The position numbers and the translations under genes are program-made. A stretch of DNA of 22,554 nt from assembly GCA_031459535.1 (NCBI GenBank), contig JAVKIJ010000050.1, forward strand, positions 1 to 22,554, read 5' to 3'. This document shows positions 1,291-18,490 of this stretch, piece by piece. Position 1 is the stretch's first letter. The number at the start of each line of letters is the position of its first letter. The DNA comes from Candidatus Fervidifonticultor quintus (lineage in GTDB: Bacteria; Sysuimicrobiota; Sysuimicrobiia; Sysuimicrobiales; Humicultoraceae). The notes beneath the pieces were generated by a model. That model had not been told where the DNA came from, did not search any database, and was given only the letters and a program-made list of their open reading frames with translations.

Positions 1291-1306
1291 CCAGGTCGGC
1301 TCGGCC

Positions 1307-1675
1307 GGGGAGCAGGCCTGTAAGCCGGGTTCTGTGCGTCGGCACGCGCGATGGCACCCGCCGACGCGGCAGTCATCCCTCTGGGGCCTCCGGTTACCCG
1401 GGACCTCAAGCGGCCTACCCGGGGATCGGCGGGCCGCCTCATCTCCCCCTATCTGGCCTTGCTCCGGGTGGGGTTTGCCTGGCCGGCCCGTCGCCGAACC
1501 GCCGGCGGGCTCTTACCCCGCCATTGCACCCTTGCCGGCTGGCAGTGCCGGCCGGCGGTATGTTTCTGTGGCACTATCCCTGGGGTTGCCCCCGCTGGGG
1601 ATTACCCAGCACCCTGCCCTGCGGAGCCCGGACTTTCCTCGGCACTCCCGTGCCGCGACCGCCCGGCCTGCTCCC
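1307..1675 (-). ncRNA. rnpB: RNase P RNA, bacterial type A
   Basis: Minus strand has GAGGAAAGTCCGGGCTCC, AGTGCCACAGAAA, GGTAAGAGC, GGCAAACCCCACCCGGAGCAAGGCC and ACAGAACCCGGCTTA. P1 is formed by GGGAGCAGGCC / GGCCTGCTCCC. Confidence 0.97.
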
Positions 1676-1681
1676 GTCGAG

Positions 1682-1690
1682 ATAGTAGCA
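1682..1690 (-). promoter_or_regulatory. Extended -10 promoter of rnpB (TGcTACTAT)
   Basis: Minus strand TGCTACTAT lies 6 nt upstream of the rnpB P1 5' end. Confidence 0.7.
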
Positions 1691-1701
1691 CGGGAGGCGG
1701 G

Positions 1702-3000
1702 TCACGCAAAGGCCTCATAGACGAGCCGGCCCACTTCGGCGATCGCCATGGCCCCATCCAGGTCCACCTTGAGGTCCCGGGTGAACGCGCAGACGAGCAC
1801 CGGGCCGCGCGGCGCAAACAGAACCCCGGCGTCGTTGCGGACACCGGCAATGGATCCGGTCTTATGCGCGATGTCGGTCCCGGGCGGCAGGTGGAGAGGC
1901 AAACGGTCGCGCACCTGCTGCTTGCGCAGGTAGAACAGCGCCTGCTCCCGTACCGAGCGGGGTAGCCGGCCCTCGGTGACCAGCATCTCCAGCAGCGCGA
2001 TCATCTCCCGAGGGGTGGTGACGTTGTTCTCCGTGTCGGCATACGGCCTGCCGGCGAACACCCGCGGCCGTGTCCTCAGGATCTGCTCGACCTCCAGGCG
2101 AGCCTCAGGCGTAAACGGGCCGCCGGGACGCCCGGCGAGCTCGAAGAGCAACCGCCGGCAGTCCATAGCCACCCGCGTCACGCGAAAGCCCCAGGAGGCG
2201 AGACGCCGGTTGATGGCCTCGATGCCCACGCGTCCCATGAGGATGTCTGTCGCGGTGTTGTCGCTGATGACGACCATCAGCATGGCCAGATCCGAGAGGC
2301 TCAGGACTGGAGACGACGTCAGTTCCTTCAACACGCCGGAGCCGGGAGACTTGGCCGCTTCGGTCACCGGTACCCGCTCATCCAGGCTGAGACGCCCTTC
2401 CTCGGCCTGGAGCAGCAACTCGAGCAGCACCGGGATCTTGAACACGCTGGCCGTAGGAAACGTCCGATCCGGCTCCAGGTAGAGCTCGAGGCCGTCCCAG
2501 CTGGACTTGATGCCAACCCCCATAACGCCGTCCAGGCCCGCGGCGAGTCGCTCCAGCCGCCGGCGCAGGTTGTCGACACCGTGCCCGTCGGCCAGCGCGC
2601 CGGCGCGCTCATCGATCGCGCGGTTGGCCAGCGCATCCGCCGCCGCATTGTACGCCCGGGAGACGTGTGTGATGCTCCAGTCGGAAAACCCAGCCAGTGC
2701 CTGCTTCGCCCGGGCGTGTAGGGGTGCCAGTTGCGCGCTCCTGACCCTGTAGGCACCCTGGAGCTGTTTGACGAGCAGGGCGCTGTCGGCGTAGATCTCG
2801 ATCTGGCTGGCACCCAGCTCCCTGGCTCTGTCAAGCCCGCGCAGCAGGGCGCGATACTCGGCGACGTTGTTGGTGGTCTCGCCCAGGTATTCGCCCATCT
2901 CCACCACAGTGTGCCCCTGGACATCCTGCAGCACCACGCCGATGCCTGCGGGGCCGGGATTGCCGCGGGAGGCGCCGTCGATGTGCAGCTTCAGCCTCAC
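1702..3000 (-). CDS. Fusion of ribonuclease HI (N-terminal) and a class A beta-lactamase-fold serine hydrolase (C-terminal)
   Basis: RNase HI motifs IDGASRGNPGPAG, TNNVAEY, YADSALL, HVSRAYNAAADALAN. These are followed in the same frame by SxxK (ASVFK), SDN and KTG. Start placed at GTG 3000 (MRLKLHIDG), just after the upstream stop at 3002-3004. Confidence 0.88.
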   Translation of the reverse strand: MRLKLHIDGASRGNPGPAGIGVVLQDVQGHTVVEMGEYLGETTNNVAEYRALLRGLDRARELGASQIEIYADSALLVKQLQGAYRVRSAQLAPLHARAKQALAGFSDWSITHVSRAYNAAADALANRAIDERAGALADGHGVDNLRRRLERLAAGLDGVMGVGIKSSWDGLELYLEPDRTFPTASVFKIPVLLELLLQAEEGRLSLDERVPVTEAAKSPGSGVLKELTSSPVLSLSDLAMLMVVISDNTATDILMGRVGIEAINRRLASWGFRVTRVAMDCRRLLFELAGRPGGPFTPEARLEVEQILRTRPRVFAGRPYADTENNVTTPREMIALLEMLVTEGRLPRSVREQALFYLRKQQVRDRLPLHLPPGTDIAHKTGSIAGVRNDAGVLFAPRGPVLVCAFTRDLKVDLDGAMAIAEVGRLVYEAFA

Positions 3001-3001
3001 G

Positions 3002-3724
3002 TCAGCCCTCCGGAAGAACGACCAGCAGGCGCCCGCACCCGTCGCAGGCCGCGACGAGATCGGCATCGCGCTCGAGCCTGGAGCGCAGGCGCTGTGGCAC
3101 GATCACATGACAGCCGCCGCATACGCCCTGGCGCACCGCGACGACAGCGATCCCACCCTTGTTCTCCCGCAGCCGCTCGTACCGGCGCAACAGAACTTCG
3201 TCGATATCCGCGGCCAGTGCCTGGCGTCTGGCGGTGAGCTCGGCGATCTCCTGATCGAGCGAGGCGGACGCCCGGGCGAACTCCTCAAGGGTCCGCGCCA
3301 GCGCCGCCTGCGCCTCTTCCAGCTCGGCCTGCGTCTCGCGCCGCTGGGTCTCGAGCACCTCGAGCTGCTCCAACAGCCCCAGCGTCTCGTCCTCCAGGTG
3401 GCCGATGTGACGACCGAGGGCCGCCGCGTCGCTCTGCATCGCGGCCAGTTCCTTGGGATTGTTGATGCGGCCGCTGTACATGTCCACCTCGAGCCGGGCC
3501 CGCTTGGTGCGCACGGATTGCGTCTCCAGTTCGAGGGTCCGCTGCCGCGCCCTGGCCGCCGTGATCGCTTTGGAGAGTTCCTCGAGCCTGGCCTCGGCCG
3601 CGGCCAGCGCCTCGCGTTGCGGTGTGCCGTCGTTCAGGCGCCGGCGGTGGGCCACGGCCGCCGCCAGCGCGGCATCTACCTGCTGAAGCGCGTACAAGCG
3701 CATGATGGTCACTGGACGCTCCAC
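3002..3724 (-). CDS. Coiled-coil protein with C-terminal C4 zinc ribbon (DUF164/CT398-like)
   Basis: LYALQQVD start, long heptad-rich helix, then YERLR..GGIAVV..CGGCH..CDGCGRLL. Sits next to RNase H and rnpB, as is typical for this family. Confidence 0.88.
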   Translation of the reverse strand: MERPVTIMRLYALQQVDAALAAAVAHRRRLNDGTPQREALAAAEARLEELSKAITAARARQRTLELETQSVRTKRARLEVDMYSGRINNPKELAAMQSDAAALGRHIGHLEDETLGLLEQLEVLETQRRETQAELEEAQAALARTLEEFARASASLDQEIAELTARRQALAADIDEVLLRRYERLRENKGGIAVVAVRQGVCGGCHVIVPQRLRSRLERDADLVAACDGCGRLLVVLPEG

Positions 3725-7782: not shown

Positions 7783-9732
7783 TCAGGAGGTAGGGGAGGA
7801 TTCCACGGAAGGCCTCACCGAGAGGCGGGTACCTGTCCGCGACAGATCGTACCCGCCGAGGGCAGCGACCGCTCGCCGGAAGTCGTCACGCTCCAGTACG
7901 GCCAGTACCTGCTGCACCCCAGGGGCTGCAAGGTGCTCGTCCGGGATGGCCAGATCGAAGCGTTCGTGGGCGACCGGCACGAAATCCAGGCCCATGGCCC
8001 GGGCGGCGGCGAGGATGCCCAGTCCCACGTCGGCTGCGCCCGTGGCCACCGTCACGGCCACAGCCATGTGCGTGTAGACCTCCCGGTCGTAGCCCCCAAT
8101 CTGCCCGGGCGAGATCCCGGCCCGGCGCAGCTCATAGTCGAGCAGCAGCCGGGTGCCGGCACCGCGCTGGCGGTTGATGAAGCGTACGCCGGGCCTGGCC
8201 AGGTCGGCGACCGTCTGGATTCGCTTGGGATTGCCGGGCGGCACCAGGAGGCCCTGCTCGCGATGGGCTAGGGTAACCAGCGTGACCGCCCGACCGGGAA
8301 GGTGGAGCCGTACGTAGGGCACGTTGTACTCGCCCGTGGTCTCATCGAGTAGATGGATGCCAGCCATGTGCGCCTCGCCGCGGTGAAGGGCGAGCAAGCC
8401 TCCCAGGCTGCCCACATGGGCGGAGGCGAGCGCGGCCGAAGGGTACTCGCGCCGCAAGAAGTCTGCCAGGACGTCCAGCGCCACATCGTGGCTGCCCACG
8501 ATGAGCACTGTGCCCTCGATGGCACTCCTGGGACGGAGGAGTTCTACTTCCACGTCCGCGCCAGCTTCGATGCCCTCGCTCGTTCTGGGAATGACGAGCC
8601 ATCCGTCCGCACGGACCAGCGAGGTCACCACGCCAGCCCCCCGGCTCAGCGGAGCTGCAACAACCCGGTCTCCCACCCGGCCGACGGTGACCCGGACGAA
8701 CTCGTCCAGCCCCATGGTCGAGTGGACCTTGCGCACCAGCGTCGCCCGGAGGCGCTGGCGTTCCGGAGGAACCAGACCCTGCAGTGCATAGAGCACCGGC
8801 CTCACGAACAGGTCGAAGGCGAGCATGGCAGAGACCGGGTACCCCGGGAGGCCGATGGCCGGCTTCCCGTGCACGATTCCCAGGATGACGGGCTTCCCGG
8901 GCCGGATGGCGACCCCGTGGACATGGACCTCCCCCAGCCTCCGAAACACCTCTGCGGTGTAGTCGTGGGAGCCGGCAGACGCTCCGGCGTTGGTGAGGAC
9001 CAGGTCGTACTGCGCGGCCCGATCCAGTGCCTCCATCAGCCGGTCTTCATCATCGGGCACCACGGGGTATCGCACAGCCTCGCCGCCGCAGCGAGCTATC
9101 TCCGCGGCCAACATGATCGTGTTGAACTCGGGAATTTGACCTGGTTGCAACGGACCGGACGGGTCCACCACCTCGTCGCCAGTGGGGATCAGCAGGACCC
9201 TGGGGCGGCGCCTGACGTTGACGGTGCGCAGCCCGGCCGCCGCCAGGGCGCCGAGATCCGCCGGTCGGAGCACGTGGTTGCTGGGGAGCAGCAACTCCGT
9301 GGCCACCACGTCCTCGCCGGCCGGCCGGACGTGCTGCCAGGGAACCGCGGGCGCTGTGATCTCCGCCTCACCGTCGGCTTCGTGGACGTCCTCGATCATG
9401 ATGACCGCGTCGGCGCCGTCGGGGAGGGGGTCGCCCGTGTCCACCGGAACGTACCGCTCCCGGGACAGACGAACCGGCGCGGTCTCCGATGCCCCGAACG
9501 TCTCCGCAGCCCGCACCGCGATGCCGTCCATCGCCGCCGCGTGATAGTGGGGAACAGAACGCGCGGCGGCCACGGCTTCCGCCGTGACCCGGCCACATGC
9601 CTCGGAGACGGGCACGGGCTCGCCGGGCAGGGGGCGCAGGAGGCCCCGCGTGCGCAGCGCGTCCATCCACTGCACGAGCGCCAGGTCCACCGGCACGTCG
9701 GTCAGGTAGATCCGCCGCTTGGAACGGTTCAC
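7783..9732 (-). CDS. moeA: Molybdopterin/tungstopterin metal insertase MoeA fused to a C-terminal PBP-type substrate-binding domain
   Basis: AAMDGIAV, VDTGDPLP, IPTGDEV, AGASAGSHDYT, AIRPGKP, GLPGYPVS. Then GSHD, HVGSLGGL, EAHMAGIHLLD, RFINRQRGAGTR, ADVGLGI. Confidence 0.95.
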   Translation of the reverse strand: MNRSKRRIYLTDVPVDLALVQWMDALRTRGLLRPLPGEPVPVSEACGRVTAEAVAAARSVPHYHAAAMDGIAVRAAETFGASETAPVRLSRERYVPVDTGDPLPDGADAVIMIEDVHEADGEAEITAPAVPWQHVRPAGEDVVATELLLPSNHVLRPADLGALAAAGLRTVNVRRRPRVLLIPTGDEVVDPSGPLQPGQIPEFNTIMLAAEIARCGGEAVRYPVVPDDEDRLMEALDRAAQYDLVLTNAGASAGSHDYTAEVFRRLGEVHVHGVAIRPGKPVILGIVHGKPAIGLPGYPVSAMLAFDLFVRPVLYALQGLVPPERQRLRATLVRKVHSTMGLDEFVRVTVGRVGDRVVAAPLSRGAGVVTSLVRADGWLVIPRTSEGIEAGADVEVELLRPRSAIEGTVLIVGSHDVALDVLADFLRREYPSAALASAHVGSLGGLLALHRGEAHMAGIHLLDETTGEYNVPYVRLHLPGRAVTLVTLAHREQGLLVPPGNPKRIQTVADLARPGVRFINRQRGAGTRLLLDYELRRAGISPGQIGGYDREVYTHMAVAVTVATGAADVGLGILAAARAMGLDFVPVAHERFDLAIPDEHLAAPGVQQVLAVLERDDFRRAVAALGGYDLSRTGTRLSVRPSVESSPTS

Positions 9733-11231
9733 CGGGCGAACACCTCGACGGCGACCTCTTCACCCACCTCGACACCCTCTGCGGCTTCGGGAATCACCGC
9801 CAGCCCGTCGGCGCCCACCATGGTCGAGATCAATCCCGACTTCCCCAGGATCGGCACCGCCCACAGTTCGTCGCCCCGGCTCTCCAGCCTGACGCGCAGG
9901 TAGTCTGCGCGGCCCGCGGACGACGCGATCCGCCGGCCCAGGCGGGCCTTCACCACAGGTAGGGGCCAAGGCTGCCTGCCCAGCAGACGGCCGATCATCT
10001 CCCTGACGAAGACGTGAAAGACGACCAGCACGGTCGTGGGATGCCCCGGCAGCCCGACGATCGGCACCTGCCCGCACAGCCCGATCACTGTGGGCTTGCC
10101 GGGCTTCATGGCGACCCCGTGCACGATCACGCCGGGGGGCCCGAGCGCATCGATGGCACGCGCCACTTCGTCGCGCAGTCCGATCGAGCTGCCTCCTGAG
10201 ATCAGCACAAGATCCGACGCCCCCCGCGCGCTGTCCAGCGCGGTCCGGACCACGTCGAATTCATCACGCACGATCCCGTAGAATGCTGGGGTCCCGCCCT
10301 CCGCCTCGACCGCCGCACACAGCGCCGGGCCGTTGATGTCGCGGATGCAACCTGGCGGTGGCGTCTGGTCCGGCGGCACGACCTCGTCCCCGGTCGAGAT
10401 GACCGCGACGCGCGGCGGCGCCGCCACGGCCACCCGCGTGACGCCCAGGCCAGCCAGCAATCCGATGTGCGATGGCCCAAGGACCGTGCCGGCCCGCAGG
10501 GCAACCGCCCCTCTCCTGACGTCCTCGCCGACCTGGATGACGTTCTCTCCCGGACCGACCGGACGGCGAACTTCGATGCCGGCCTCAGCGCCGACACCGG
10601 GGGACGCACCGGCTGCCAGGGTCTCCGTGTGTTCCACCATGACGACCGCGTCCGCCCCCGGCGGCAACACGCCTCCGGTGGAGATGCGCACAACCTGCCC
10701 GGCGCCCAACGAGGTTCCCAGTGCCCTGCCCATGAGCACCTCGCCGATGACCGCAAGGTATGCCGGCAGGGCCTCGCTCGCGCCGAACGTGTCGGTGGCG
10801 CGGACCGCAAATCCGTCCACGACCGACCGCGGGTACGGTGGCAGATCCTCAGGCGCCATGACATCCGCAGCGAGGACCCTGCCCTGACTTTCAGCGAGGG
10901 CGACGGTGTCGACTCGAGGCGGTGGAGGGGTCCACGCGGCCTGGAGCCGGGCCCTGGCCTCGGCCACGCTCCTGATGTGCAGGAACTCCTGCAGCGGGGC
11001 CCCGCCGGCGATGGGAGGGAAGATCCCGACCTCATCACCCGGCCGCAGCACGTGGGAATCGTCACGCGCGATCCCGGCCACAAACACCTTTCGCACCGTG
11101 CCGGCGGGAATTCCGAGGCGGGCCACGAGTTCCCCCACGGTGGTGCCGTCAGGCACCTCGATCTGCAGCGCCGCCCGGCCGCCCGGCACCATCTCGCGCA
11201 GCGTGGCGTAGAGCCGGACGGCGACGATCAT
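9729..11231 (-). CDS. moeA: MoaD/ThiS-like domain fused in frame to MoeA (gephyrin-like)
   Basis: N-terminal VRLYATLR..GTTVGEL..LRPGDEVGIFPPIAGG. Then RSVVDGFAV, ISTGGVLP, ISTGDEV, ISGGSSIG, MKPGKPT, GLPGHP, PILGKSGLI. Confidence 0.92.
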   Translation of the reverse strand: MIVAVRLYATLREMVPGGRAALQIEVPDGTTVGELVARLGIPAGTVRKVFVAGIARDDSHVLRPGDEVGIFPPIAGGAPLQEFLHIRSVAEARARLQAAWTPPPPRVDTVALAESQGRVLAADVMAPEDLPPYPRSVVDGFAVRATDTFGASEALPAYLAVIGEVLMGRALGTSLGAGQVVRISTGGVLPPGADAVVMVEHTETLAAGASPGVGAEAGIEVRRPVGPGENVIQVGEDVRRGAVALRAGTVLGPSHIGLLAGLGVTRVAVAAPPRVAVISTGDEVVPPDQTPPPGCIRDINGPALCAAVEAEGGTPAFYGIVRDEFDVVRTALDSARGASDLVLISGGSSIGLRDEVARAIDALGPPGVIVHGVAMKPGKPTVIGLCGQVPIVGLPGHPTTVLVVFHVFVREMIGRLLGRQPWPLPVVKARLGRRIASSAGRADYLRVRLESRGDELWAVPILGKSGLISTMVGADGLAVIPEAAEGVEVGEEVAVEVFAR

Positions 11232-11521
11232 GCGGGGTCGGCCACCTTGGGGAAATACTGCCGGTACAGCAGGGCCATGTCCCGGCCAAAGATGGCCAGC
11301 TGATCGCCCGGCCTCACACGCCGGCTGGCGGCCGAGTACTGGCCGTTCAAGAAGAGATGGCTGACATCGCCCGGGTCCAGGCCCAGGGACGCTAGCACGT
11401 CCCGGATGGTGCCGGCCGAACCCACGGTCGCGTGCGTGCGCACCGGCTCAAAGGCCGACCGCCTTCCGAAGCGCTGCTGAAGCGCCCCGTAGATGCGCAC
11501 CTCCACCGTCACGCTAGACAT
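11228..11521 (-). CDS. MoaD/ThiS-like beta-grasp protein lacking C-terminal Gly-Gly (Ubl2)
   Basis: VEVRIYGALQ..TIRDVLASLGL..LFLNG..VRPGDQLAIFGRDMALLY. Start is ATG 11521 or GTG 11512; ATGA overlap with the next gene. Confidence 0.8.
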   Translation of the reverse strand: MSSVTVEVRIYGALQQRFGRRSAFEPVRTHATVGSAGTIRDVLASLGLDPGDVSHLFLNGQYSAASRRVRPGDQLAIFGRDMALLYRQYFPKVADPA

Positions 11522-11768
11522 AGAGCATGCGCATGTCCGTCGGGAAGACCCCCAGCCGGTCCCCGGACCGCACCGTCCGGTCCCAGGGCTGAGCGTCGTA
11601 TCGGCCGTTGACGAAGATGTTGCCGACCGCCGCGCGCTCGATTCCGAGCGCCGCCAGCGCCTGGGCGACCGTGCCTTCCGGCAGGTCGACCCAGGCGATC
11701 GAAGGACGGTGGACGCCGGACTGGGGCGCGAGCCGACGCAGCCGGCCGTACAGGTGGACCTCAATCAA
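11514..11768 (-). CDS. MoaD/ThiS-like beta-grasp protein lacking C-terminal Gly-Gly (Ubl1)
   Basis: IEVHLYGRLRR..TVAQALAALGI..IFVNG..VRSGDRLGVFPTDMRMLYV. TTG start overlaps the AOR TGA. Confidence 0.82.
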   Translation of the reverse strand: MIEVHLYGRLRRLAPQSGVHRPSIAWVDLPEGTVAQALAALGIERAAVGNIFVNGRYDAQPWDRTVRSGDRLGVFPTDMRMLYV

Positions 11769-13510
11769 TAGGCGTGCACCTTGTCCAGTTCTTCATCCGG
11801 CACATCGAACACCACATTGTGTGGCGGGAGCGGCTCGTACTTCATGAACTCCGGGAGCCGGTCGTGCGCCTTGGTGAATCCCGCCGCTTCGTTGAAGGCA
11901 CGCTCGGCCTTGAGGATCTCCAGCCCCAGCGGCACGATGTCGTTGGTGGTCCAGCTCGTCCCCACCACCGCCGCGCTGGATTCGACCATGCCCTCGGCGC
12001 CCTCAGGGATGTCGAGAATTGCGAAGGCGTCGAACAGGCACTATCCGGTAGAGTCGAGGAACGCTGTGGTGGCCTGGAACGCCCGCGACATCTCCGCCTT
12101 CTCCGGCTTGAAGGGATCGGCCTTGCCGCCGACGCCCAGGATCTCCGGCGCGATGGTGTAGCCGGCCGTGTGGTCGGCGCCCATGGTGGTCGTGGCGTAC
12201 GTCACGCCGATACCCTTGACGGCCCGCGGCTCGTAGGCCGGCATCGACTGTCCCTTGACGGTGGGGACGCGGACAACGCCGAACGCCTTGCCGGTAAACT
12301 CGGCGCCGTTGCCGATGATGCGGCCCAGCGGCGTGCCGCGGCGCACCTCTTCATTGAGCAGCCGTTTGGCACCGTCGGCGTCGCCGAACTTCAACAGGCC
12401 GCCCTCCATGGCCACCGCGATGGTCCCGCCCATCTCGATGGTGTCCACCCCGACGTCGTTGCAGGCCCAGATCAGGTCCGCGATGTCGTCCAGATTCCCG
12501 ATCCCGCAGTTGGCCCCCAGGGCCCACACCGACTCGTATTCCAACACCGACGTGTGGAACTTCCCGTCGGGGTAGGGATAGACGTTCGAGCACTGGATGA
12601 TGCAGCCCGGGTGGCAGGGGTGTCCGGTCGTGCCGACGCCGTCGCGCTTGTGGATGATCTCGCGGGCCGCCTCGCCGCTGATCTGGCCGGTGAGCTCGAA
12701 CCGGCCGCTGCGGAAGTTGCGGGTGGGATACCCGCCGGCCTCGTTCATGATGTTGGCCAGGACGTTGGTCCCATAGGTGTTGAGGGCTCCGTCCTTCTTG
12801 GTCACGTCGTGCTTGAGTGACGCGTCTGTGAGCTTCTTGATGGCCGCCCTGAACTTCTCCTCGTCAGCGATGGCCACACCCGGGCCGCCGGTGTCGTCGA
12901 TGATGATGGCCTTCAGCCCTTTGGCGCCCATCACGGCACCCATGCCGCCCCGGCCGGCGTAGCGCCCGGCGGTGTTCTCCATGTCGTTAACGCAGATGCC
13001 CGCCCCAGCCATGCGGAACTCGCCGGCGGGCCCGATGCCGATGATGGCCACGCCTTTCCCATGGCGTTCCCAGAGCGTGGCGCACACCTGGTACATGCCC
13101 TTGCCGACCAGGTCTGTCGCCGGTAGGAACTCGGCGCCGTCCTTGGTGATCTTGAGGAGCCAGAACTGTCCGGTGTCCCTGGGCTGGCCCTCGACGATGA
13201 TCGCCTTGATGCCCAACCTGGCAATCTGCTGGGACGACAGCCCACCCGCGTTGGTCTCTTTGATCGTGCCCGTCAGCGGGCTCTTGCCGCCGAACGACGT
13301 ACGGCCCGACGTGGGCGCAGCGGTGCCGCTGACAATCCCGGGCGCGATCACCAGTTTGTTGTTGGGACCGAGAGGGTGACAGGTAGGCGGGACCTCCCGG
13401 GCCGTGACCATGGAGGTCAGGCCGCGCCCGCCCCACAGGCGGTACACCTCGGGCACGTCCTCGAACGTCGCCCGCAAGTCGCTCATGTTCACCCGTAGTA
13501 ACCTGCTCAT
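11765..13510 (-). CDS. aor: Tungsten-dependent aldehyde:ferredoxin oxidoreductase (AOR family), 581 codons with one in-frame TAG at 12041-12043 (codon 490); recoded, pseudogene or error
   Basis: WGGRGL, KSPLTGTIKETNAGG, IGPAGE, AGRGGMGAVMGAKGLKAI, CHPGCIIQC, EYES, DVGVDTI, YEPRA, GADHT, then DSTG*CLF..ERAFNEAAGF..DRLPEF in one frame. ATG 13510 has SD GGAGGG. Confidence 0.93.
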
Positions 13511-13588
13511 GGAATCCCTCCGGTACACGTGGTCATTCCCGCAGACGCTGCGTGCGGACGCTCTCACCTCCTCCCTCAAGAACAACGG

Positions 13589-13618
13589 AGGAGACAACCC
13601 GTACCGGGGTCGTCTCCT
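13589..13618 (-). terminator. Hairpin (terminator-like expression platform) overlapping the riboswitch P1 3' strand
   Basis: mRNA AGGAGACGACCC-cggtac-GGGTTGTCTCCT forms 12 bp with one G-U pair, followed by a weak U-rich run CCGTTGTTCTT. Confidence 0.55.
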
Positions 13619-13696
13619 TTGCTACCGGCAGGCGGGGCGATCGCTCGCCCCACCCTCTCGCCCGTGTGTCCGCTGGGGGCATCGCGGGTCGGAGAC
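13612..13696 (-). promoter_or_regulatory. Moco RNA motif riboswitch, P3-less (tungsten-cofactor/Tuco-associated) type
   Basis: mRNA has P1 GTCTCC/GGAGAC, P2 GCCC-CCAG..CAC-GGGC, P4 GGGTGGGGCGA-GCGA(GNRA)-TCGCCCCGCCT, P5 GC-CGGTA-GC, then AAAGGAG. It lies directly upstream of aor. Confidence 0.85.
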
Positions 13697-13753
13697 CGTA
13701 TGTTGGTTCCAAGTGAGGTATACTCCACCCACCACCGGGAGCTCCTCCTTGGC

Positions 13754-14911
13754 CTACGGGCAGCGGACAATATCCTGCGCCCACAGGCAGTCCGCGCAGG
13801 ACGGCGCGTTTCCCCAACAGTCCTGGTTGCGCGCCGCGTAGGCGCAGGCCTCGCCGCAGTCCACGCACGAAGGAAAGCGAAAGTCTCGCACCCTGGCGCG
13901 AAAAGCCACGTACTCCTCGGAAGTCCATATCTCCGCCAGGGGCCGATCGGTCACGCATCCCAGCACGTAGCGCGAGACGTCCTTGCGCCTCCCGTAGATG
14001 TAGTACGGGTACGAGTGCATGAGCGCATAGCAGGGGCTCACGCCGCCGTCCCATCCGATCACGAGCGCGCGTTCCTCAACGAACCGGCAGCGCCGGTGCG
14101 CGCCCCACCGCAGGCGGGGCAGCCGGGCGATCCCCCACACCACCCAGTCCCCGCTCGCCACCGGCCAACCGGTCGGGACCGGCAGGGGCTCCTCTCGGTC
14201 GTAAAGGACGTCTTGGGCCTGCTCCGGCCCATGAGGCAGGAGATTGGACACCAGGACGAAGGCGGCACCCAGTGCGCCGGCCAGCGCCGGAAGCCGGGCG
14301 AGATCGTCGAAATTGCCTCGCGTGACCACGTACTCCAGCCCGACGCGCGGCGCCATCAGGCCCCGCTCCCGGGACAGGGCCCGCAGGGTCTTCACATTGT
14401 GCAGGACCCTGTCCAGGCCGCGGCTGAGACGGGCCCGCTCATAGGCCGCGATGTGCGCCGCGTCAATGGAGACCACCACGGTGTCGAGGCGGGCCTCCAG
14501 CAAGGCCTCCGCCACGGACCGGTCCAGCAACAGACCGTTGGTGGTCAGCGTGGTCCCCACGCCCAGCTCGGCGACCTTGGCGACCATCGCGACAATGTCC
14601 GGATGCGCCAGCGGCTCTCCAAACCCGCCAAAGATCACGCGCGTCAGCTCGGGAAGGGCTGCGAGCTGTGCGACGATCCGCTGAAAGGTCTGCTGGCTCA
14701 TCTCACCCGGCGCGTCCTGCCACACCTGGCGCACGCAAATGGCGCAATCCAGGTTGCACCGGGTGGTGGGCTCGATGTAGACGCGGCGCACATCGGGGCG
14801 AGCCTGCCAGAGCGAGAGGCCGTCTTCCCGGGACTCAGCGACCATCTCGGTGCCGCGGTACCTGGGTGGGAGGCGGACGGTGCCGTCTTTGCTGACCGCG
14901 ATCCTCTCCAT
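13754..14911 (-). CDS. Radical SAM protein, tungsten cofactor oxidoreductase maturase type, with Cys-rich SPASM-like C-terminus
   Basis: CNLDCAIC (CxxxCxxC), FGGFGEPLAHP, TTNG, SNLLP, CRFVE, GVSPC, FPSCVDC..C..DCWGNAPSCADCLW..CP. SD AGAGGAG; adjacent to aor. Confidence 0.9.
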   Translation of the reverse strand: MERIAVSKDGTVRLPPRYRGTEMVAESREDGLSLWQARPDVRRVYIEPTTRCNLDCAICVRQVWQDAPGEMSQQTFQRIVAQLAALPELTRVIFGGFGEPLAHPDIVAMVAKVAELGVGTTLTTNGLLLDRSVAEALLEARLDTVVVSIDAAHIAAYERARLSRGLDRVLHNVKTLRALSRERGLMAPRVGLEYVVTRGNFDDLARLPALAGALGAAFVLVSNLLPHGPEQAQDVLYDREEPLPVPTGWPVASGDWVVWGIARLPRLRWGAHRRCRFVEERALVIGWDGGVSPCYALMHSYPYYIYGRRKDVSRYVLGCVTDRPLAEIWTSEEYVAFRARVRDFRFPSCVDCGEACAYAARNQDCWGNAPSCADCLWAQDIVRCP

Positions 14912-15045
14912 GCTCCTCTTTCTCCCTCCGCGGGCATCACCGCGAGACCGCCCACAGCCCCGTCCTTCAGTATAGACCTCCAGGCTCGACTATTGTGGTA
15001 GAACCGGAAGCCTCGGCACCGCGGCGAGGCGGTCCCAGGTGCCTG

Positions 15046-15054
15046 TGATAGTAT
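15046..15054 (+). promoter_or_regulatory. Extended -10 (TGaTAGTAT) for a probably leaderless deoC transcript
   Basis: Located 7 nt upstream of GTG 15062, with no convincing SD in between. Confidence 0.55.
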
Positions 15055-15061
15055 TGAAGGC

Positions 15062-16045
15062 GTGACCACCCTGGCGTACCCGGGGGAGCCGCGGCTGGAC
15101 GTGCGCAACGCGGGCGTGCCGTTCGATCCCGGGTGGATCCGAAACCTCCATGTGAACCGCAGCGCCGTCGAGCGCCGCGCCGCCACCATCCCCACGCGCC
15201 GGACCGTCAAGGGGGAATGGCAGGCGGCGTGGCTGATCCGTGCAGTCGAGTGCCTGGACCTCACCACCCTGGCCGGTGACGACACGCCAGGGACGATCCG
15301 CCGGCTGGCCATCAAAGCGCGACATCCGGTGCGGCCGGAAGTGCTTCGAGGGTTCGGACTCGACCCGGGCGCGCTGCGGGTGGCGGCCCTGTGCGTCTAC
15401 CACAGCATGGTGCCTACCGCGGTCGAGGCGCTCCGCGATTCCGGGGTCCTGGTCGCGGCGGTCTCCACAGGCTTCCCGGCCGGCCAGAGCGCGTTTCGGA
15501 TCAAGATAGAGGAAATCAAGGAGTCGGTGGCCGCCGGCGCCCAGGAGATCGACGTGGTGATCTCCCGGGCCCACGCCCTCGCGGGCAACTGGGTCGCGCT
15601 GTACGACGAGGTCCGGGCCTTCCGCGAGGCGTGCGGCGCCGCGCACATGAAGACCATCCTGGCGTGCGGCGAGCTGGGCACCCTGCTCAACGTGGCCGCG
15701 GCCAGCTGGGTGTGCATGATGGCCGGGGCGGATTTCATCAAGACGTCCACCGGCAAAGAAGCGATCAATGCCACCCTCCCCTTCGGGCTGGTCATGGCCA
15801 GGGCGATCCGCGAATACTATGGGCAGACTGGATACCGCGTGGGCCTGAAGCCCGCCGGGGGCATCCGGACAGCGAGGCAGGCCCTGGACTGGCTGCTGCT
15901 CGTGAAGGAAGAGTTGGGAGAGGACTGGATGCACAGGTCGCGGTTTCGGATCGGCGCCAGCGGCCTGCTCACCGACATCGAGCGCCAGTTGTGGCACACG
16001 CTGACCGGACACTACGCCGCCACGCACCATCAACCCATGCCCTGA
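15062..16045 (+). CDS. deoC: Deoxyribose-phosphate aldolase, long (DERA-like) type
   Basis: LDLTTLAGDDT, VAALCVY, AAVSTGFPAG, GAQEIDVVI, HMKTILACGEL, GADFIKTSTGK, GLKPAGGIR, FRIGASGLL. Confidence 0.95.
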   Translation: MTTLAYPGEPRLDVRNAGVPFDPGWIRNLHVNRSAVERRAATIPTRRTVKGEWQAAWLIRAVECLDLTTLAGDDTPGTIRRLAIKARHPVRPEVLRGFGLDPGALRVAALCVYHSMVPTAVEALRDSGVLVAAVSTGFPAGQSAFRIKIEEIKESVAAGAQEIDVVISRAHALAGNWVALYDEVRAFREACGAAHMKTILACGELGTLLNVAAASWVCMMAGADFIKTSTGKEAINATLPFGLVMARAIREYYGQTGYRVGLKPAGGIRTARQALDWLLLVKEELGEDWMHRSRFRIGASGLLTDIERQLWHTLTGHYAATHHQPMP

Positions 16046-16066
16046 CGTCGCACCGGGAGCGTATCC

Positions 16067-18490
16067 ATGGGCGTCACCGAGATCCTGCGCACGATGGAGT
16101 ACGGCCCGGCTCCGGAAGCCGCTGGCCCGGCACTGCAGTGGCTGGACTCCCACGGCCGCCAGTTCCGGCTGTTCATCAACGGCCGCTGGGTGGAACCGTC
16201 CGGAGGGGTGTGGTTCGACAGCGTGAACCCGGCGACGGCCAGACCCCTGGCACGCATCGCGCAGGCCGCCCCCGAGGACGTGGACGCCGCAGTGCGGGCG
16301 GCGGCAGCGGCAGCGGAGTCCTGGGGGCGCACGCCGGGGCACGGCCGCGCCCGGTATCTGTACGCGATCGCGCGCCAGGTCCAGAAGCACGCCCGCCTGC
16401 TCGCCGTGCTGGAGTCCCTGGATAACGGCAAGCCGATCCGTGAGACCCGCGACATCGATATCCCGCTGGTCGTGCGGCACTTCTACCATCACGCGGGCTG
16501 GGCGCAGTTGCTGGAACGGGCATTCCCCGGCTACGAGCCAGTGGGTGTCGTGGGGCAGATCATCCCCTGGAACTTCCCCCTGCTGATGCTGGCCTGGAAG
16601 ATCGCCCCGGCCCTGGCTGCGGGCAACACGGTGGTCCTCAAGCCGGCCGAGTTCACTTCGATCTCGGCCATGGCCTTCTGCGAGCTTCTGCTGGAGATCG
16701 GGTTGCCGCCCGGCGTGGTGAACGTCGTGACCGGTGACGGGCAGGTCGGAGAGATGATCGTCCGGCACCCCGGCATCCACAAGATCGCGTTCACGGGCTC
16801 CACCGAGGTTGGCCGGATCATCCGCCGCGCCACCGCCGGCACCGGCAAGAGACTCTCGCTGGAACTGGGCGGCAAGTCGCCGTTCCTCATCTTCGACGAC
16901 GCCGATCTCGACAGTGCGGTCGAGGGCGTGGTGGACGCCATCTGGTTCAACCAGGGCCAGGTCTGCTGCGCCGGATCCCGGCTCCTGGTGCAGGAAGGCA
17001 TCGCCGAGCGCCTGCTGGGGAAGCTGCGCGCGCGCATGGAGAAGCTGCGCGTCGGTGACCCGCTGGACAAAGCCATCGACATCGGGGCCATCGTGGCGCC
17101 CGTCCAGTTGCAGAAGATCCAGCGGCTCTGCGAGCTGGGCGTCAAGGAAGGCGCGGTGATGTGGCAACCATCGTGGGCCTGCCCGCGGGAGGGGTTCTTC
17201 TTCCCGCCGACGTTGTTCACCAACGTGGCCCCATCGGCCACCATCGCCCAGGAGGAGATCTTCGGGCCCGTGCTGGTGGCCATGACGTTTCGCACCCCGG
17301 CCGAAGCGATCGCCCTCGCCAACAACACCCGCTATGGCCTGGCCGCCAGCGTCTGGACCGAGAACATCAACCTGGCGCTGGAGGCGGCCCGCCAGATCCG
17401 TGCAGGCACTGTGTGGATCAACGGCACGAACCTGTTCGATGGCGCCTCCGGCTTCGGCGGGTACCGGGAGAGCGGGTTCGGGCGCGAGGGCGGCCGCGAA
17501 GGCATGCTGGAGTACCTGCGGGCCCCCGATGAGACCCGGATGCTGGCCCACTCACCGACGCCCGGGCGGACCTCCGCCGCCGGTTTGTCGGCCCCGGACT
17601 ACGCGCGCGGGGCGCCGGCGGCAATGGCGGACGGCCAGCCGCCCATCGACCGTTCGCCGAAGATGTACATCGGGGGCAAGCAGGTGCGGCCAGACCAGGG
17701 ATACTCCCGTCTCGTATACGGCTCCGGGGGCCGGCTGGTCGGGGAGGTGGGTGAAGGGAACCGCAAGGACATCCGTGATGCGGTCGAGGCAGCGCATGCC
17801 GCCGCATCCTGGGGGCAGGCGACAGCCCATACCCGCGCTCAAGTTCTCTACTTCATCGGAGAGAACCTGGAACCCCGCGCGCGCGAGTTCGCCCGGCGAA
17901 TCGCGGCCATGACGGGCTGGTCCCTCAGAACGGCCCAGCGCGAGGTGCGACAGGCGATCGACCGGCTGTTCACCTTCGCCGCATGGGCGGACAAGTACGA
18001 CGGGGTGGTCCACAGCGTCCACATCCCGCCCCGCAACCTGACTATCGCCATCCACGAACCGGTAGGAGTGATCGGCATCGCCTGCCCCGAGGAGTCCCCT
18101 CTCCTGGCCCTCGCCTCGCTGGTGGGCGCGGCCATTGCCATGGGAAACACCACGGTGGTCATCCCGTCTCAGGCGCATCCCCTGGCCGCGACCGATCTCT
18201 ACCAGGTGTTCGACACCTCCGACCTGCCCGGCGGCGTCGTGAACATTGTCACCGGAAGCCGTGACGATCTGGCGAAGGTCCTGGCTCAGCACGACGACGT
18301 GGACGCGCTGTGGTACTTTGGGTCTGCCGAGGGCAGCGCGATGGTCGAGCTCGAGTCGGCCGCGAACATGAAGCGCACCTGGGTCAATCACGGCCGGCCG
18401 CTCGACTGGTCAGCGGCGTGGGCCGAAGGCGAGACGATCCTCCGCCACGCCGTCCAGGTGAAGAACATCTGGGTGCCCCACGGCGAGTAG
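16067..18490 (+). CDS. Aldehyde dehydrogenase, ALDH16-like (full ALDH plus a second truncated ALDH module)
   Basis: IIPWNFP, LKPAE, FTGSTEVG, LELGGKSP, NQGQVCCAGSR, EEIFGPV, FGGYRESGFGREGG. The second module (MYIGGKQ..EPVGVIG..LPGGVVNIVTG..KNIWVP) lacks the catalytic domain. Confidence 0.92.
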   Translation: MGVTEILRTMEYGPAPEAAGPALQWLDSHGRQFRLFINGRWVEPSGGVWFDSVNPATARPLARIAQAAPEDVDAAVRAAAAAAESWGRTPGHGRARYLYAIARQVQKHARLLAVLESLDNGKPIRETRDIDIPLVVRHFYHHAGWAQLLERAFPGYEPVGVVGQIIPWNFPLLMLAWKIAPALAAGNTVVLKPAEFTSISAMAFCELLLEIGLPPGVVNVVTGDGQVGEMIVRHPGIHKIAFTGSTEVGRIIRRATAGTGKRLSLELGGKSPFLIFDDADLDSAVEGVVDAIWFNQGQVCCAGSRLLVQEGIAERLLGKLRARMEKLRVGDPLDKAIDIGAIVAPVQLQKIQRLCELGVKEGAVMWQPSWACPREGFFFPPTLFTNVAPSATIAQEEIFGPVLVAMTFRTPAEAIALANNTRYGLAASVWTENINLALEAARQIRAGTVWINGTNLFDGASGFGGYRESGFGREGGREGMLEYLRAPDETRMLAHSPTPGRTSAAGLSAPDYARGAPAAMADGQPPIDRSPKMYIGGKQVRPDQGYSRLVYGSGGRLVGEVGEGNRKDIRDAVEAAHAAASWGQATAHTRAQVLYFIGENLEPRAREFARRIAAMTGWSLRTAQREVRQAIDRLFTFAAWADKYDGVVHSVHIPPRNLTIAIHEPVGVIGIACPEESPLLALASLVGAAIAMGNTTVVIPSQAHPLAATDLYQVFDTSDLPGGVVNIVTGSRDDLAKVLAQHDDVDALWYFGSAEGSAMVELESAANMKRTWVNHGRPLDWSAAWAEGETILRHAVQVKNIWVPHGE

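What the first reader, a model, noticed from the sequence alone, without database searches (positions are those of the whole stretch)
11765..13510. AOR with a single in-frame amber codon immediately before the fourth [4Fe-4S] ligand cysteine: candidate pyrrolysine/amber readthrough
Seen: the ORF track splits aor in two, but both parts share a frame and read ..AFLDSTG-TAG-CLFDAFAILD..ERAFNEAAGF..DRLPEF..HAY-TGA. This gives a normal-length 581-aa AOR with no other lesion visible. Known: DxxGxC is the conserved pterin/Fe-S motif carrying the fourth cluster Cys (Cys494 in Pyrococcus furiosus AOR). Termination at the TAG, or reinitiation at ATG 11989, would lose that Cys. The riboswitch, maturase, Ubls and both moeA genes look intact. 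An Asp (CLFD) occupies a position I recall as usually non-acidic. Inference: site-specific UAG decoding (Pyl or suppression) next to the cofactor site would be new for this enzyme family as far as I know. Equally live alternatives are a recent nonsense mutation (e.g. TAC/TTG to TAG) or a consensus error. TAG is an ordinary stop in six other genes here, and no pyl genes are in the window.
Basis: partly seen in the sequence, partly recalled or inferred. Interest (0 to 1): 0.82.

Follow-up and report, generated by a model that had tools for sequence, protein, structure and literature searches.

The report
Fresh amber nonsense mutation in AOR
A tungsten-type aldehyde oxidoreductase gene in a hot-spring bacterium carries a real but very recent Tyr-to-stop mutation, most likely an ordinary newly broken gene and not a case of pyrrolysine or programmed stop-codon decoding.

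Summary
The in-frame TAG is real. It lies at window 12043..12041 (minus strand), codon 490 of a 581-codon aor, directly before the Cys that aligns with the fourth [4Fe-4S] ligand of P. furiosus AOR. Contigs from 4 of 4 separately assembled runs of one study carry it, so it is not an error of the MAG consensus.

- All 165 other orthologous loci have a sense codon at the column: Tyr in 38, His in 127, stops in 0. The nearest relative (96% identical) has TAC.
- PylS, PylB and PylD are not found.
- No credible tRNA(CUA) is found.
- RF1 is present.
- TAG is the commonest terminator in the genome, 1016 of 2099.
- Only this one of 46 tested TAG junctions splits a protein domain.

The rest of the gene is pristine. 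After the stop ω is 0.024, and no clade-invariant column has changed. So this is a very young TAC->TAG nonsense allele in an accessory operon, found in 1 of 5 genus-mates. Weak near-cognate readthrough cannot be excluded. The finding is ordinary and of low interest.

The parts
12044..13510 (-). aor, codons 1-489 (N-terminal domain, the CxxCxxxC cluster motif, most of domains 2-3)
   Evidence: Open frame from ATG 13510. Aligns over residues 1-563 with solved AORs 9mqx_D (E 3.5e-89) and 1aor_A (E 1.4e-88). AFOR_C model positions 51-274 end exactly at the stop (L068).
12041..12043 (-). In-frame TAG (codon 490); orthologues have TAC/TAT (Tyr) or CAC/CAT (His)
   Evidence: Present with no variant row in contigs of 4 of 4 runs.
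12038..12040 (-). TGC, Cys491, the equivalent of Pf AOR Cys494 (fourth [4Fe-4S] ligand)
   Evidence: Alignment to 1aor_A, residue numbers counted along the printed row. The ligand role is recalled from the literature and was not read here.
11765..12037 (-). aor codons 492-581 plus the TGA stop (11767..11765); still looks fully constrained
   Evidence: AFOR_C resumes at model positions 287-346. Against L181 there are 26 synonymous and 3 non-synonymous differences, ω 0.024. 0 of 26 clade-invariant columns are changed.
13612..13696 (-). Candidate Moco/Wco riboswitch aptamer in the aor leader (sub-threshold)
   Evidence: RF01055, 26 bits against a gathering score of 36, E 3.5e-4. The alignment lacks the middle hairpin. 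Not found at the gathering threshold.
13754..14911 (-). Radical SAM/SPASM gene upstream of aor; ends in TAG
   Evidence: Pfam Radical_SAM and SPASM; stop codon TAG.
11228..11764 (-). ThiS/MoaD-like ubiquitin-fold gene directly after aor (the true start is probably internal to this ORF)
   Evidence: Ub-Mut7C domain at residues 85-159 of the 178-aa ORF.
9729..11231 (-). ThiS-MoeA fusion gene
   Evidence: ThiS, MoeA_N, MoCF_biosynth and MoeA_C domains.
7783..9732 (-). MoeA fused to a PBP-like (oxyanion-binding type) domain
   Evidence: MoeA_N, MoCF_biosynth, MoeA_C and PBP_like domains.

Best explanation
A single third-position change, TAC (Tyr490) to TAG, has recently put a premature stop into an otherwise intact tungsten/molybdenum-pterin aldehyde:ferredoxin oxidoreductase gene. 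The host is an uncultured hot-spring bacterium; the closest named records are MAGs labelled Armatimonadota. RF1 terminates at this codon. The main product is therefore a 489-residue fragment that lacks the fourth cluster Cys and the last 91 residues, and is presumably inactive. The allele dominates the local population. It is tolerated because the aor/cofactor operon is an accessory module and the genome has two other AOR-family genes. In short, it is a nascent pseudogene, or loss-of-function allele, and not a recoding site.

Shown: the TAG is in the DNA, the ancestral codon was Tyr, no decoding machinery was found, and TAG is a normal stop here. Inferred: termination at this site in vivo and loss of activity.
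For: 1. The TAG is real. It is in the covering contig, with no differing letter, in 4 of 4 runs laid (X1-X4; depth in that bin 9.9, 34.6, 31.3 and 7.8).
2. The ancestral state is known. 6 of 6 close orthologues from related genomes have TAC. Of 165 other loci (6 + 80 + 79; about 142 distinct), 38 have Tyr, 127 have His and 0 have a stop. The nearest, L181 (96.5% aa identity over residues 240-581), has TAC.
3. No decoding machinery was found:
- PylS best hit 21.2 bits against a cut-off of 178.
- PylB no match.
- PylD 20.7 bits against a cut-off of 150.
- 43 tRNAs at default ARAGORN settings, none with a CUA anticodon.
- The three CUA-like ARAGORN calls are spurious. One lies inside an amidase ORF with no Rfam hit at E<=1. 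Two appear only at a threshold that gives 377 calls, fold poorly and get no Rfam tRNA hit at E<=10.
4. TAG is a working stop here:
- prfA (RF1) scores 514 bits against a cut-off of 423.
- TAG ends 1016 of 2099 coding-like frames.
- TAG ends 4 of 12 Pfam-supported genes in the window, including the gene just upstream of aor.
5. It is a one-off. Of 46 TAG junctions tested, 32 had Pfam families on both sides. Only the AOR has one family running across the stop. The same census picked up two likely TGA-selenocysteine sites, so it can detect recoding.
6. The gene is dispensable. The operon (window about 7931-14912) was found in 1 of 5 other genomes of the genus, while the flanking aldehyde-dehydrogenase region was in 5 of 5. 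An aor orthologue was found in 6 of 24 family members sampled. There are two paralogues in the same genome.
Against: - There is no sign of decay after the stop. ω is 0.024 downstream against 0.05 upstream when compared with L181. 0 of 26 invariant columns are changed, and there are no indels or second stops. This fits a very young mutation, but it equally fits a tail that is still translated.
- The allele is the only one seen in four samples, which is unexpected for a strongly deleterious change.
- Only contigs were laid, not raw reads, so a minority TAC allele is not excluded. Three of the four samples may be the MAG's own source, and all four are from one study.
- The tRNA set is incomplete. 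No genuine tRNA-Tyr, Cys or Phe is in the assembly, and the genome is 88.85% complete. Missing machinery is therefore not proof of absence.
- No expression or protein data were available: 0 RNA runs were listed.
Confidence: 0.8

Rival explanations
1. Leaky stop (hypomorph). The origin is the same TAC->TAG mutation, but near-cognate tRNAs (Tyr, Gln, Lys) read the UAG at a low rate. Some full-length enzyme, part of it wild-type, is still made, and selection keeps the tail intact.
For: The tail is as constrained as the rest of the gene (ω 0.024; 0 of 26 invariant columns changed). The allele dominates four samples. In yeast, Gln, Tyr and Lys are inserted at UAG (abstract of PMC4150775), and Tyr would restore the ancestral residue.
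Against: The constraint signal is dominated by time before the mutation and cannot separate this reading from a young null allele. No stimulatory context or structure was identified; I did not search for one beyond reading the sequence. RF1 is present. The yeast data need not transfer to this bacterium. Basal readthrough in bacteria is low (recalled, not tested here).
Confidence: 0.1
2. Dedicated UAG decoding. A suppressor tRNA, for example a tRNA-Tyr with a CUA anticodon, or a Pyl system is encoded on an unassembled part of the genome and decodes this codon.
For: The genome is only 88.85% complete and its tRNA set lacks Tyr, Cys and Phe. The machinery could therefore be missing from the assembly. 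The ancestral residue is Tyr, which a supF-like tRNA would restore.
Against: - 0 of 165 orthologous loci have TAG at the column.
- No pylS, pylB or pylD was found.
- TAG is the commonest stop, 48% of terminators, which an efficient suppressor would disrupt.
- Only 1 of 46 TAG junctions splits a domain.
- RF1 is present.
- No paper among the 4 listed links AOR and pyrrolysine in its title or abstract (5 papers hold both terms).
Confidence: 0.03
3. Artefact or minority allele. The TAG is a sequencing or assembly error, or a variant that the assemblers happened to pick, while most cells carry TAC.
For: Only contigs, which drop rare variants, were available. Three of the four samples may be the source of the MAG, and all are from one study. 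The MAG has 5.24% contamination and two tmRNA genes.
Against: Four run-wise assemblies at depths of about 8-35 agree, with no alternative contig at this place at a 5% share. The site is not a homopolymer or repeat.
Confidence: 0.05

Closest known systems
Pyrococcus furiosus tungsten aldehyde:ferredoxin oxidoreductase (PDB 1AOR) and bacterial AORs (9MQX, 8C0Z)
   Same: Full-length alignment (E about 1e-88). The CxxCxxxC motif and the DxxGxC motif with the fourth Cys are in place.
   Different: This gene has a stop at the position of Pf Leu493. Its clade has Tyr there with a following CLFD, and a sister clade has His with CLFI.
Pyrrolysine-encoding UAG in methylamine methyltransferase genes (mtmB/mtbB/mttB) with the pylTSBCD cluster
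   Same: A single in-frame UAG inside an enzyme gene, near the active site.
   Different: In those genes the UAG is conserved among orthologues and pyl genes are present (recalled knowledge). Here the UAG is unique to one lineage (0 of 165) and pylS, pylB and pylD were not found.
Young nonsense pseudogenes / loss-of-function alleles of accessory genes in bacterial populations
   Same: A one-base change to a stop in an otherwise intact gene. The gene is patchily distributed in the genus, and paralogues are present.
   Different: Nothing of substance. Its only notable trait is that the stop falls one codon before a metal-cluster ligand.
AOR / MoaD-like / radical-SAM (Cmo-like) modules behind Moco/Wco riboswitches
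   Same: The same gene set surrounds this aor: radical SAM/SPASM, a Ubl, MoeA genes and a weak RF01055 hit. The same kind of module was noted elsewhere in this scan (e1-1431411, e1-1418021).
   Different: Here aor itself is interrupted, and the MoeA genes are fused to ThiS and to a PBP-like domain.

Membership tests
Pyrrolysine decoding system | Pyrrolysyl-tRNA synthetase (PylS) gene in the genome | tested here: not met
   TIGR02367: best hit 21.2 bits against a cut-off of 178.15. One control genome passed the cut-off. The genome is 88.85% complete.
Pyrrolysine decoding system | Pyrrolysine biosynthesis genes pylB/pylD | tested here: not met
   TIGR03910: no match. TIGR03911: 20.7 bits against a cut-off of 150.05. 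pylC and pylSn were not searched.
Pyrrolysine decoding system | tRNA with a CUA anticodon | tested here: not met
   None among 43 ARAGORN tRNAs. Three CUA-like calls were rejected. The tRNA set is incomplete, so absence is not proven.
Pyrrolysine decoding system | The in-frame UAG is conserved at the same column in orthologues | tested here: not met
   0 of 165 other loci have a stop there; 38 have Tyr and 127 have His.
Genome-wide UAG suppression or reassignment | UAG is rare as a terminator, RF1 is lost, or many genes carry in-frame UAG | tested here: not met
   TAG ends 1016 of 2099 coding-like frames. prfA is present at 514 bits. 1 of 46 TAG junctions splits a domain (32 informative on both sides, 14 not).
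AOR family (tungsten/molybdenum-pterin aldehyde:ferredoxin oxidoreductases) | Full-length similarity, with three Cys in CxxCxxxC plus the DxxGxC Cys | tested here: met
   Aligns over residues 1-563 with 9mqx_D and 1aor_A. The motifs PCHPGCIIQC and DSTG-X-C align with the Pf motifs. AFOR_C lies on both sides of the stop.
Pseudogene (decayed) | Relaxed constraint, further lesions or indels after the first lesion | tested here: not met
   ω is 0.024 after the stop; 0 of 26 invariant columns are changed; there is no second lesion. If it is a pseudogene, it is a very young one.
Pseudogene (nascent) / nonsense allele | A premature stop relative to all orthologues, one mutational step from their codon | tested here: met
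   TAG here against TAC in the nearest relative and in 27 loci overall.

The most novel reading that the evidence does not exclude
The amber codon is not a dead end. It is read through at a useful rate, either by near-cognate tRNA-Tyr/Gln or by a tRNA-Tyr(CUA)-type suppressor on unassembled DNA. The cell would then keep a small amount of full-length, largely wild-type AOR, and the stop would act as a strong down-tuner of an oxygen-sensitive tungsten enzyme. This would explain why the 91-codon tail shows no decay and why the allele dominates four samples.
Probability: 0.1. Interest if true: 0.45.

Novelty: already known. Interest (0 to 1): 0.1.

Why it matters
As it stands, this is an ordinary event: a newly arisen nonsense allele in an accessory gene. 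Its value is mainly cautionary. An in-frame TAG next to a catalytic residue looks like recoding when seen in a single sequence. Four checks settle the matter quickly: the codon in the nearest orthologues, the stop-codon usage of the genome, a genome-wide census of split domains, and a search for the decoding genes. If the minority reading (functional readthrough) were true, it would be a small natural example of expression tuning by a leaky stop in a bacterium.

Tried and rejected
- One search used the wrong Pfam accession (PF01939 is NucS, not PylS). It tells nothing about Pyl and is disregarded.
- ARAGORN's 'tRNA-?(Arg|Pyl)' on C54 was tempting because it has a long variable arm like bacterial tRNA-Tyr. 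It lies inside a 541-aa amidase ORF on the same strand and gets no Rfam hit at E<=1, so I rejected it.
- Relaxed ARAGORN (-ps90) gave 377 calls against 43 at default settings, among them two 'tRNA-Pyl(cta)'. Both have mismatched stems and no Rfam tRNA hit at E<=10, so I rejected them. The two 'tRNA-Tyr' calls at that threshold lie inside coding-like frames.
- The RBS/start-codon filter for adjacent genes was a weak discriminator because many true gene starts lacked a recognisable SD. It was used only to reduce 137 candidates to 74. The 63 dropped (36 TAG, 23 TGA, 4 TAA) were not examined further.
The 26 non-TAG junctions other than the two TGA controls were judged only by eye, from the translations that the call printed (up to L092). 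None looked like a split gene.
- Re-initiation at ATG 11989 or at non-canonical starts after the TAG: every possible start lies after Cys491, so no such product keeps the ligand. Rejected as a route to an active enzyme.
- No RNA run was listed, so expression could not be examined.
- Earlier notes on this genome concern a different contig and do not bear on the TAG.

Full report
OBSERVATION. On the minus strand the window reads ...CTC GAC TCT ACC GGA TAG TGC CTG TTC GAC.... The TAG occupies 12043..12041. Read through as X, the frame runs without any other stop from ATG 13510 to TGA 11767..11765 and gives 581 residues. The ORF list shows the two pieces, 12041..13597 and 11765..11989. The protein aligns over residues 1-563 with solved AORs (9mqx_D, E 3.5e-89; 1aor_A, E 1.4e-88). 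Counting along the printed 1aor_A row, D486/X490/C491 correspond to Pf Asp489/Leu493/Cys494. That Cys494 is the fourth [4Fe-4S] ligand is recalled from the literature and was not read here.

IS THE TAG REAL? One search found four runs of one study that hold 0.96-0.98 of the sampled words. These are hot-spring metagenomes from samples S1-S4, three of which may be the source of the MAG. When their contigs were laid, the record covering 12041-12043 had no differing letter there in 4 of 4 runs:
- X1 record 3: no differing letter anywhere.
- X2 record 9: no differing letter anywhere.
- X4 record 26: no differing letter anywhere.
- X3 record 16: two differences, at 11646 and 11650.
No variant row was reported at the site at a 5% share. 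These are contigs, not reads, so a minority allele is not excluded. An error confined to the MAG consensus is unlikely.

WHAT DO RELATIVES HAVE? Among 40 related genomes, six carry a full-length orthologue (80-88% identity), all without internal stops. All six have TAC at the column and all six have CLFD. Scans of named genomes (80 loci) and metagenomes (79 loci) bring the total to 165 other loci, about 142 distinct once identical pieces are collapsed. The column holds His in 127 (CAC 108, CAT 19), Tyr in 38 (TAC 27, TAT 11) and a stop in none. The nearest relative, L181 (96.5% identity over residues 240-581), has TAC. The TAG is one third-position step from the ancestral TAC.

IS THERE ANY MACHINERY FOR READING UAG? 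The assembly has 138 contigs, is 88.85% complete and 5.24% contaminated.
- PylS: best hit 21.2 bits against a cut-off of 178.
- PylB: no match.
- PylD: 20.7 bits against a cut-off of 150.
- ARAGORN finds 43 tRNAs, none with CUA, plus a tRNA-Sec.
- One odd call, 'tRNA-?(Arg|Pyl)' on C54, lies inside a 541-aa amidase ORF and gets no Rfam hit.
- At a relaxed threshold that yields 377 calls, two 'tRNA-Pyl(cta)' calls appear. Both fold poorly and get no Rfam tRNA hit at E<=10.
- RF1 is present (514 bits against a cut-off of 423).
One caveat applies. No genuine tRNA-Tyr, Cys or Phe is in the assembly, so the tRNA set is incomplete.

IS UAG A NORMAL STOP HERE? I used the strong GC3 signal of this 68.7% GC genome. 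Of 2099 coding-like frames, 1016 end in TAG, 958 in TGA and 125 in TAA. In 137 cases the same frame stays coding-like after the stop. After dropping 63 with a nearby start and RBS, 74 remained: 46 TAG, 23 TGA and 5 TAA. I scanned the halves of the 46 TAG junctions against Pfam:
- 32 had families on both sides.
- 4 had a family on one side only.
- 10 had none.
Only the AOR shows one family continuing across the stop (AFOR_C model positions 51-274, then 287-346). Three same-family pairs restart at an earlier model position and are separate genes: NuoM|NuoN, PilT|PilT and permease|permease. Two TGA controls behave like selenocysteine sites, because the domain resumes at residue 1 after the stop, with U-P-R-C and U-P-H-C motifs. 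The census can therefore detect recoding. In the window, TAG ends 4 of 12 Pfam-supported genes, including the radical-SAM gene just upstream of aor.

IS THE GENE DECAYING? No.
- Against L181, the 250 aligned codons before the stop show 44 synonymous and 8 non-synonymous differences (ω 0.05).
- The 91 codons after the stop show 26 synonymous and 3 non-synonymous differences (ω 0.024).
- Among 31 distinct Tyr-clade sequences, the own gene departs from 0 of 170 invariant columns upstream and 0 of 26 downstream.
If the tail had been neutral for the whole of the own branch, tens of non-synonymous changes would be expected on about 210 sites at a dS of 0.3-0.6. So either the stop is very young or the tail is still read. 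These data cannot tell the two apart.

CONTEXT. aor sits in a cofactor operon:
- radical SAM/SPASM (14911..13754)
- aor
- a ThiS/MoaD-like Ubl (11764..11228)
- a ThiS-MoeA fusion (11231..9729)
- a MoeA-PBP-like fusion (9732..7783)
The leader has only a sub-threshold Moco/Wco riboswitch hit, and none at the gathering score. The operon (window about 7931-14912) is found in 1 of 5 other genomes of the genus, while the neighbouring aldehyde-dehydrogenase region is in 5 of 5. An aor orthologue is in 6 of 24 sampled family members. The genome has two further AOR-family genes at 37% identity. The module is thus accessory and often absent, which fits a tolerated loss.

MECHANISM AND RIVALS.
- Most likely (about 0.8): a recent TAC->TAG nonsense mutation. 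RF1 terminates there, giving a 489-residue fragment without Cys491 and the last 91 residues, and the enzyme is lost. Termination and inactivity are inferred, not shown.
- Leaky near-cognate readthrough that keeps a little enzyme (about 0.1). In yeast, Gln, Tyr and Lys are inserted at UAG (abstract of PMC4150775; the listing was not otherwise read).
- An artefact or minority allele (about 0.05).
- A dedicated suppressor or Pyl system on unassembled DNA (about 0.03).
Re-initiation cannot rescue the ligand Cys, because every possible start lies after it.

KNOWN OR NEW. A full-text search for 'aldehyde ferredoxin oxidoreductase' together with 'pyrrolysine' found 5 papers that hold both terms (4 listed). 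None has either term in its title or abstract (listing only, papers not read, supplements not seen). There is no evidence here for such a link either. Earlier notes of this scan describe the same AOR/MoaD-like/radical-SAM module and P3-less Moco/Wco riboswitches in other genomes. They add context but do not concern the TAG. The finding is a real feature of an ordinary, already known kind: a fresh nonsense allele.

Noticed in passing
L034 (G000:C45:23818-24669, minus) and L038 (G000:C48:142-1002, minus); tRNA-Sec at G000:C130:2809-2904: Two likely selenoproteins. An AhpC/TSA-type redoxin and a Thioredoxin_3-type protein each have an in-frame TGA at the first Cys of the redox motif (..YY-U-PRC.. 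and ..TPT-U-PHC..). The Pfam domain resumes at residue 1 after the stop. A tRNA-Sec(UCA) is present. SECIS elements and selA/selB/selD were not looked for.
   Followed up: partly
aor column 490 and column 494, across L004-L009 and L100-L258: Two residues flanking the cluster-ligand Cys co-vary between clades: G-Y-C-L-F-D (36 of 38 Tyr loci) against G-H-C-L-F-I (120 of 127 His loci). Solved AORs have Leu or Phe at the first position. This may mark sub-families with a different cluster or pterin environment.
   Followed up: no
window 7783-11231 (minus): Two unusual MoeA fusions lie downstream of aor. One carries an N-terminal ThiS/MoaD-like domain. The other carries a C-terminal PBP_like (periplasmic-binding-protein-type, oxyanion-binding) domain.
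   Followed up: no
window 1702-3066 (minus): One ORF combines an RNase H-like/RVT_3 domain (residues 26-150) with a Beta-lactamase2 domain (residues 191-429).
   Followed up: no
window 1305-1674 (minus): Bacterial RNase P RNA, class A: 258 bits, full length. The ORF 1351..1965 (+) that overlaps it has no Pfam family and is probably not a gene.
   Followed up: partly
G000:C37:1334-1683 and G000:C52:45-391: Two tmRNA genes with slightly different tags (ANTQYALAA and ANTNYALAA) occur in one MAG. Together with the 5.24% contamination, this suggests two related strains or species are binned together.
   Followed up: no
window 13612-13696 (minus): The aor leader matches the Moco/Wco riboswitch model only below threshold (26 bits against 36), and the middle hairpin of the model is missing in the alignment.
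   Followed up: partly
window 14990-17551 (minus) against 16067-18490 (plus): A long 853-aa ORF without any Pfam family lies antisense to a strongly supported aldehyde dehydrogenase gene (Aldedh, E 3.5e-202). It is a typical high-GC shadow ORF and not a gene.
   Followed up: partly
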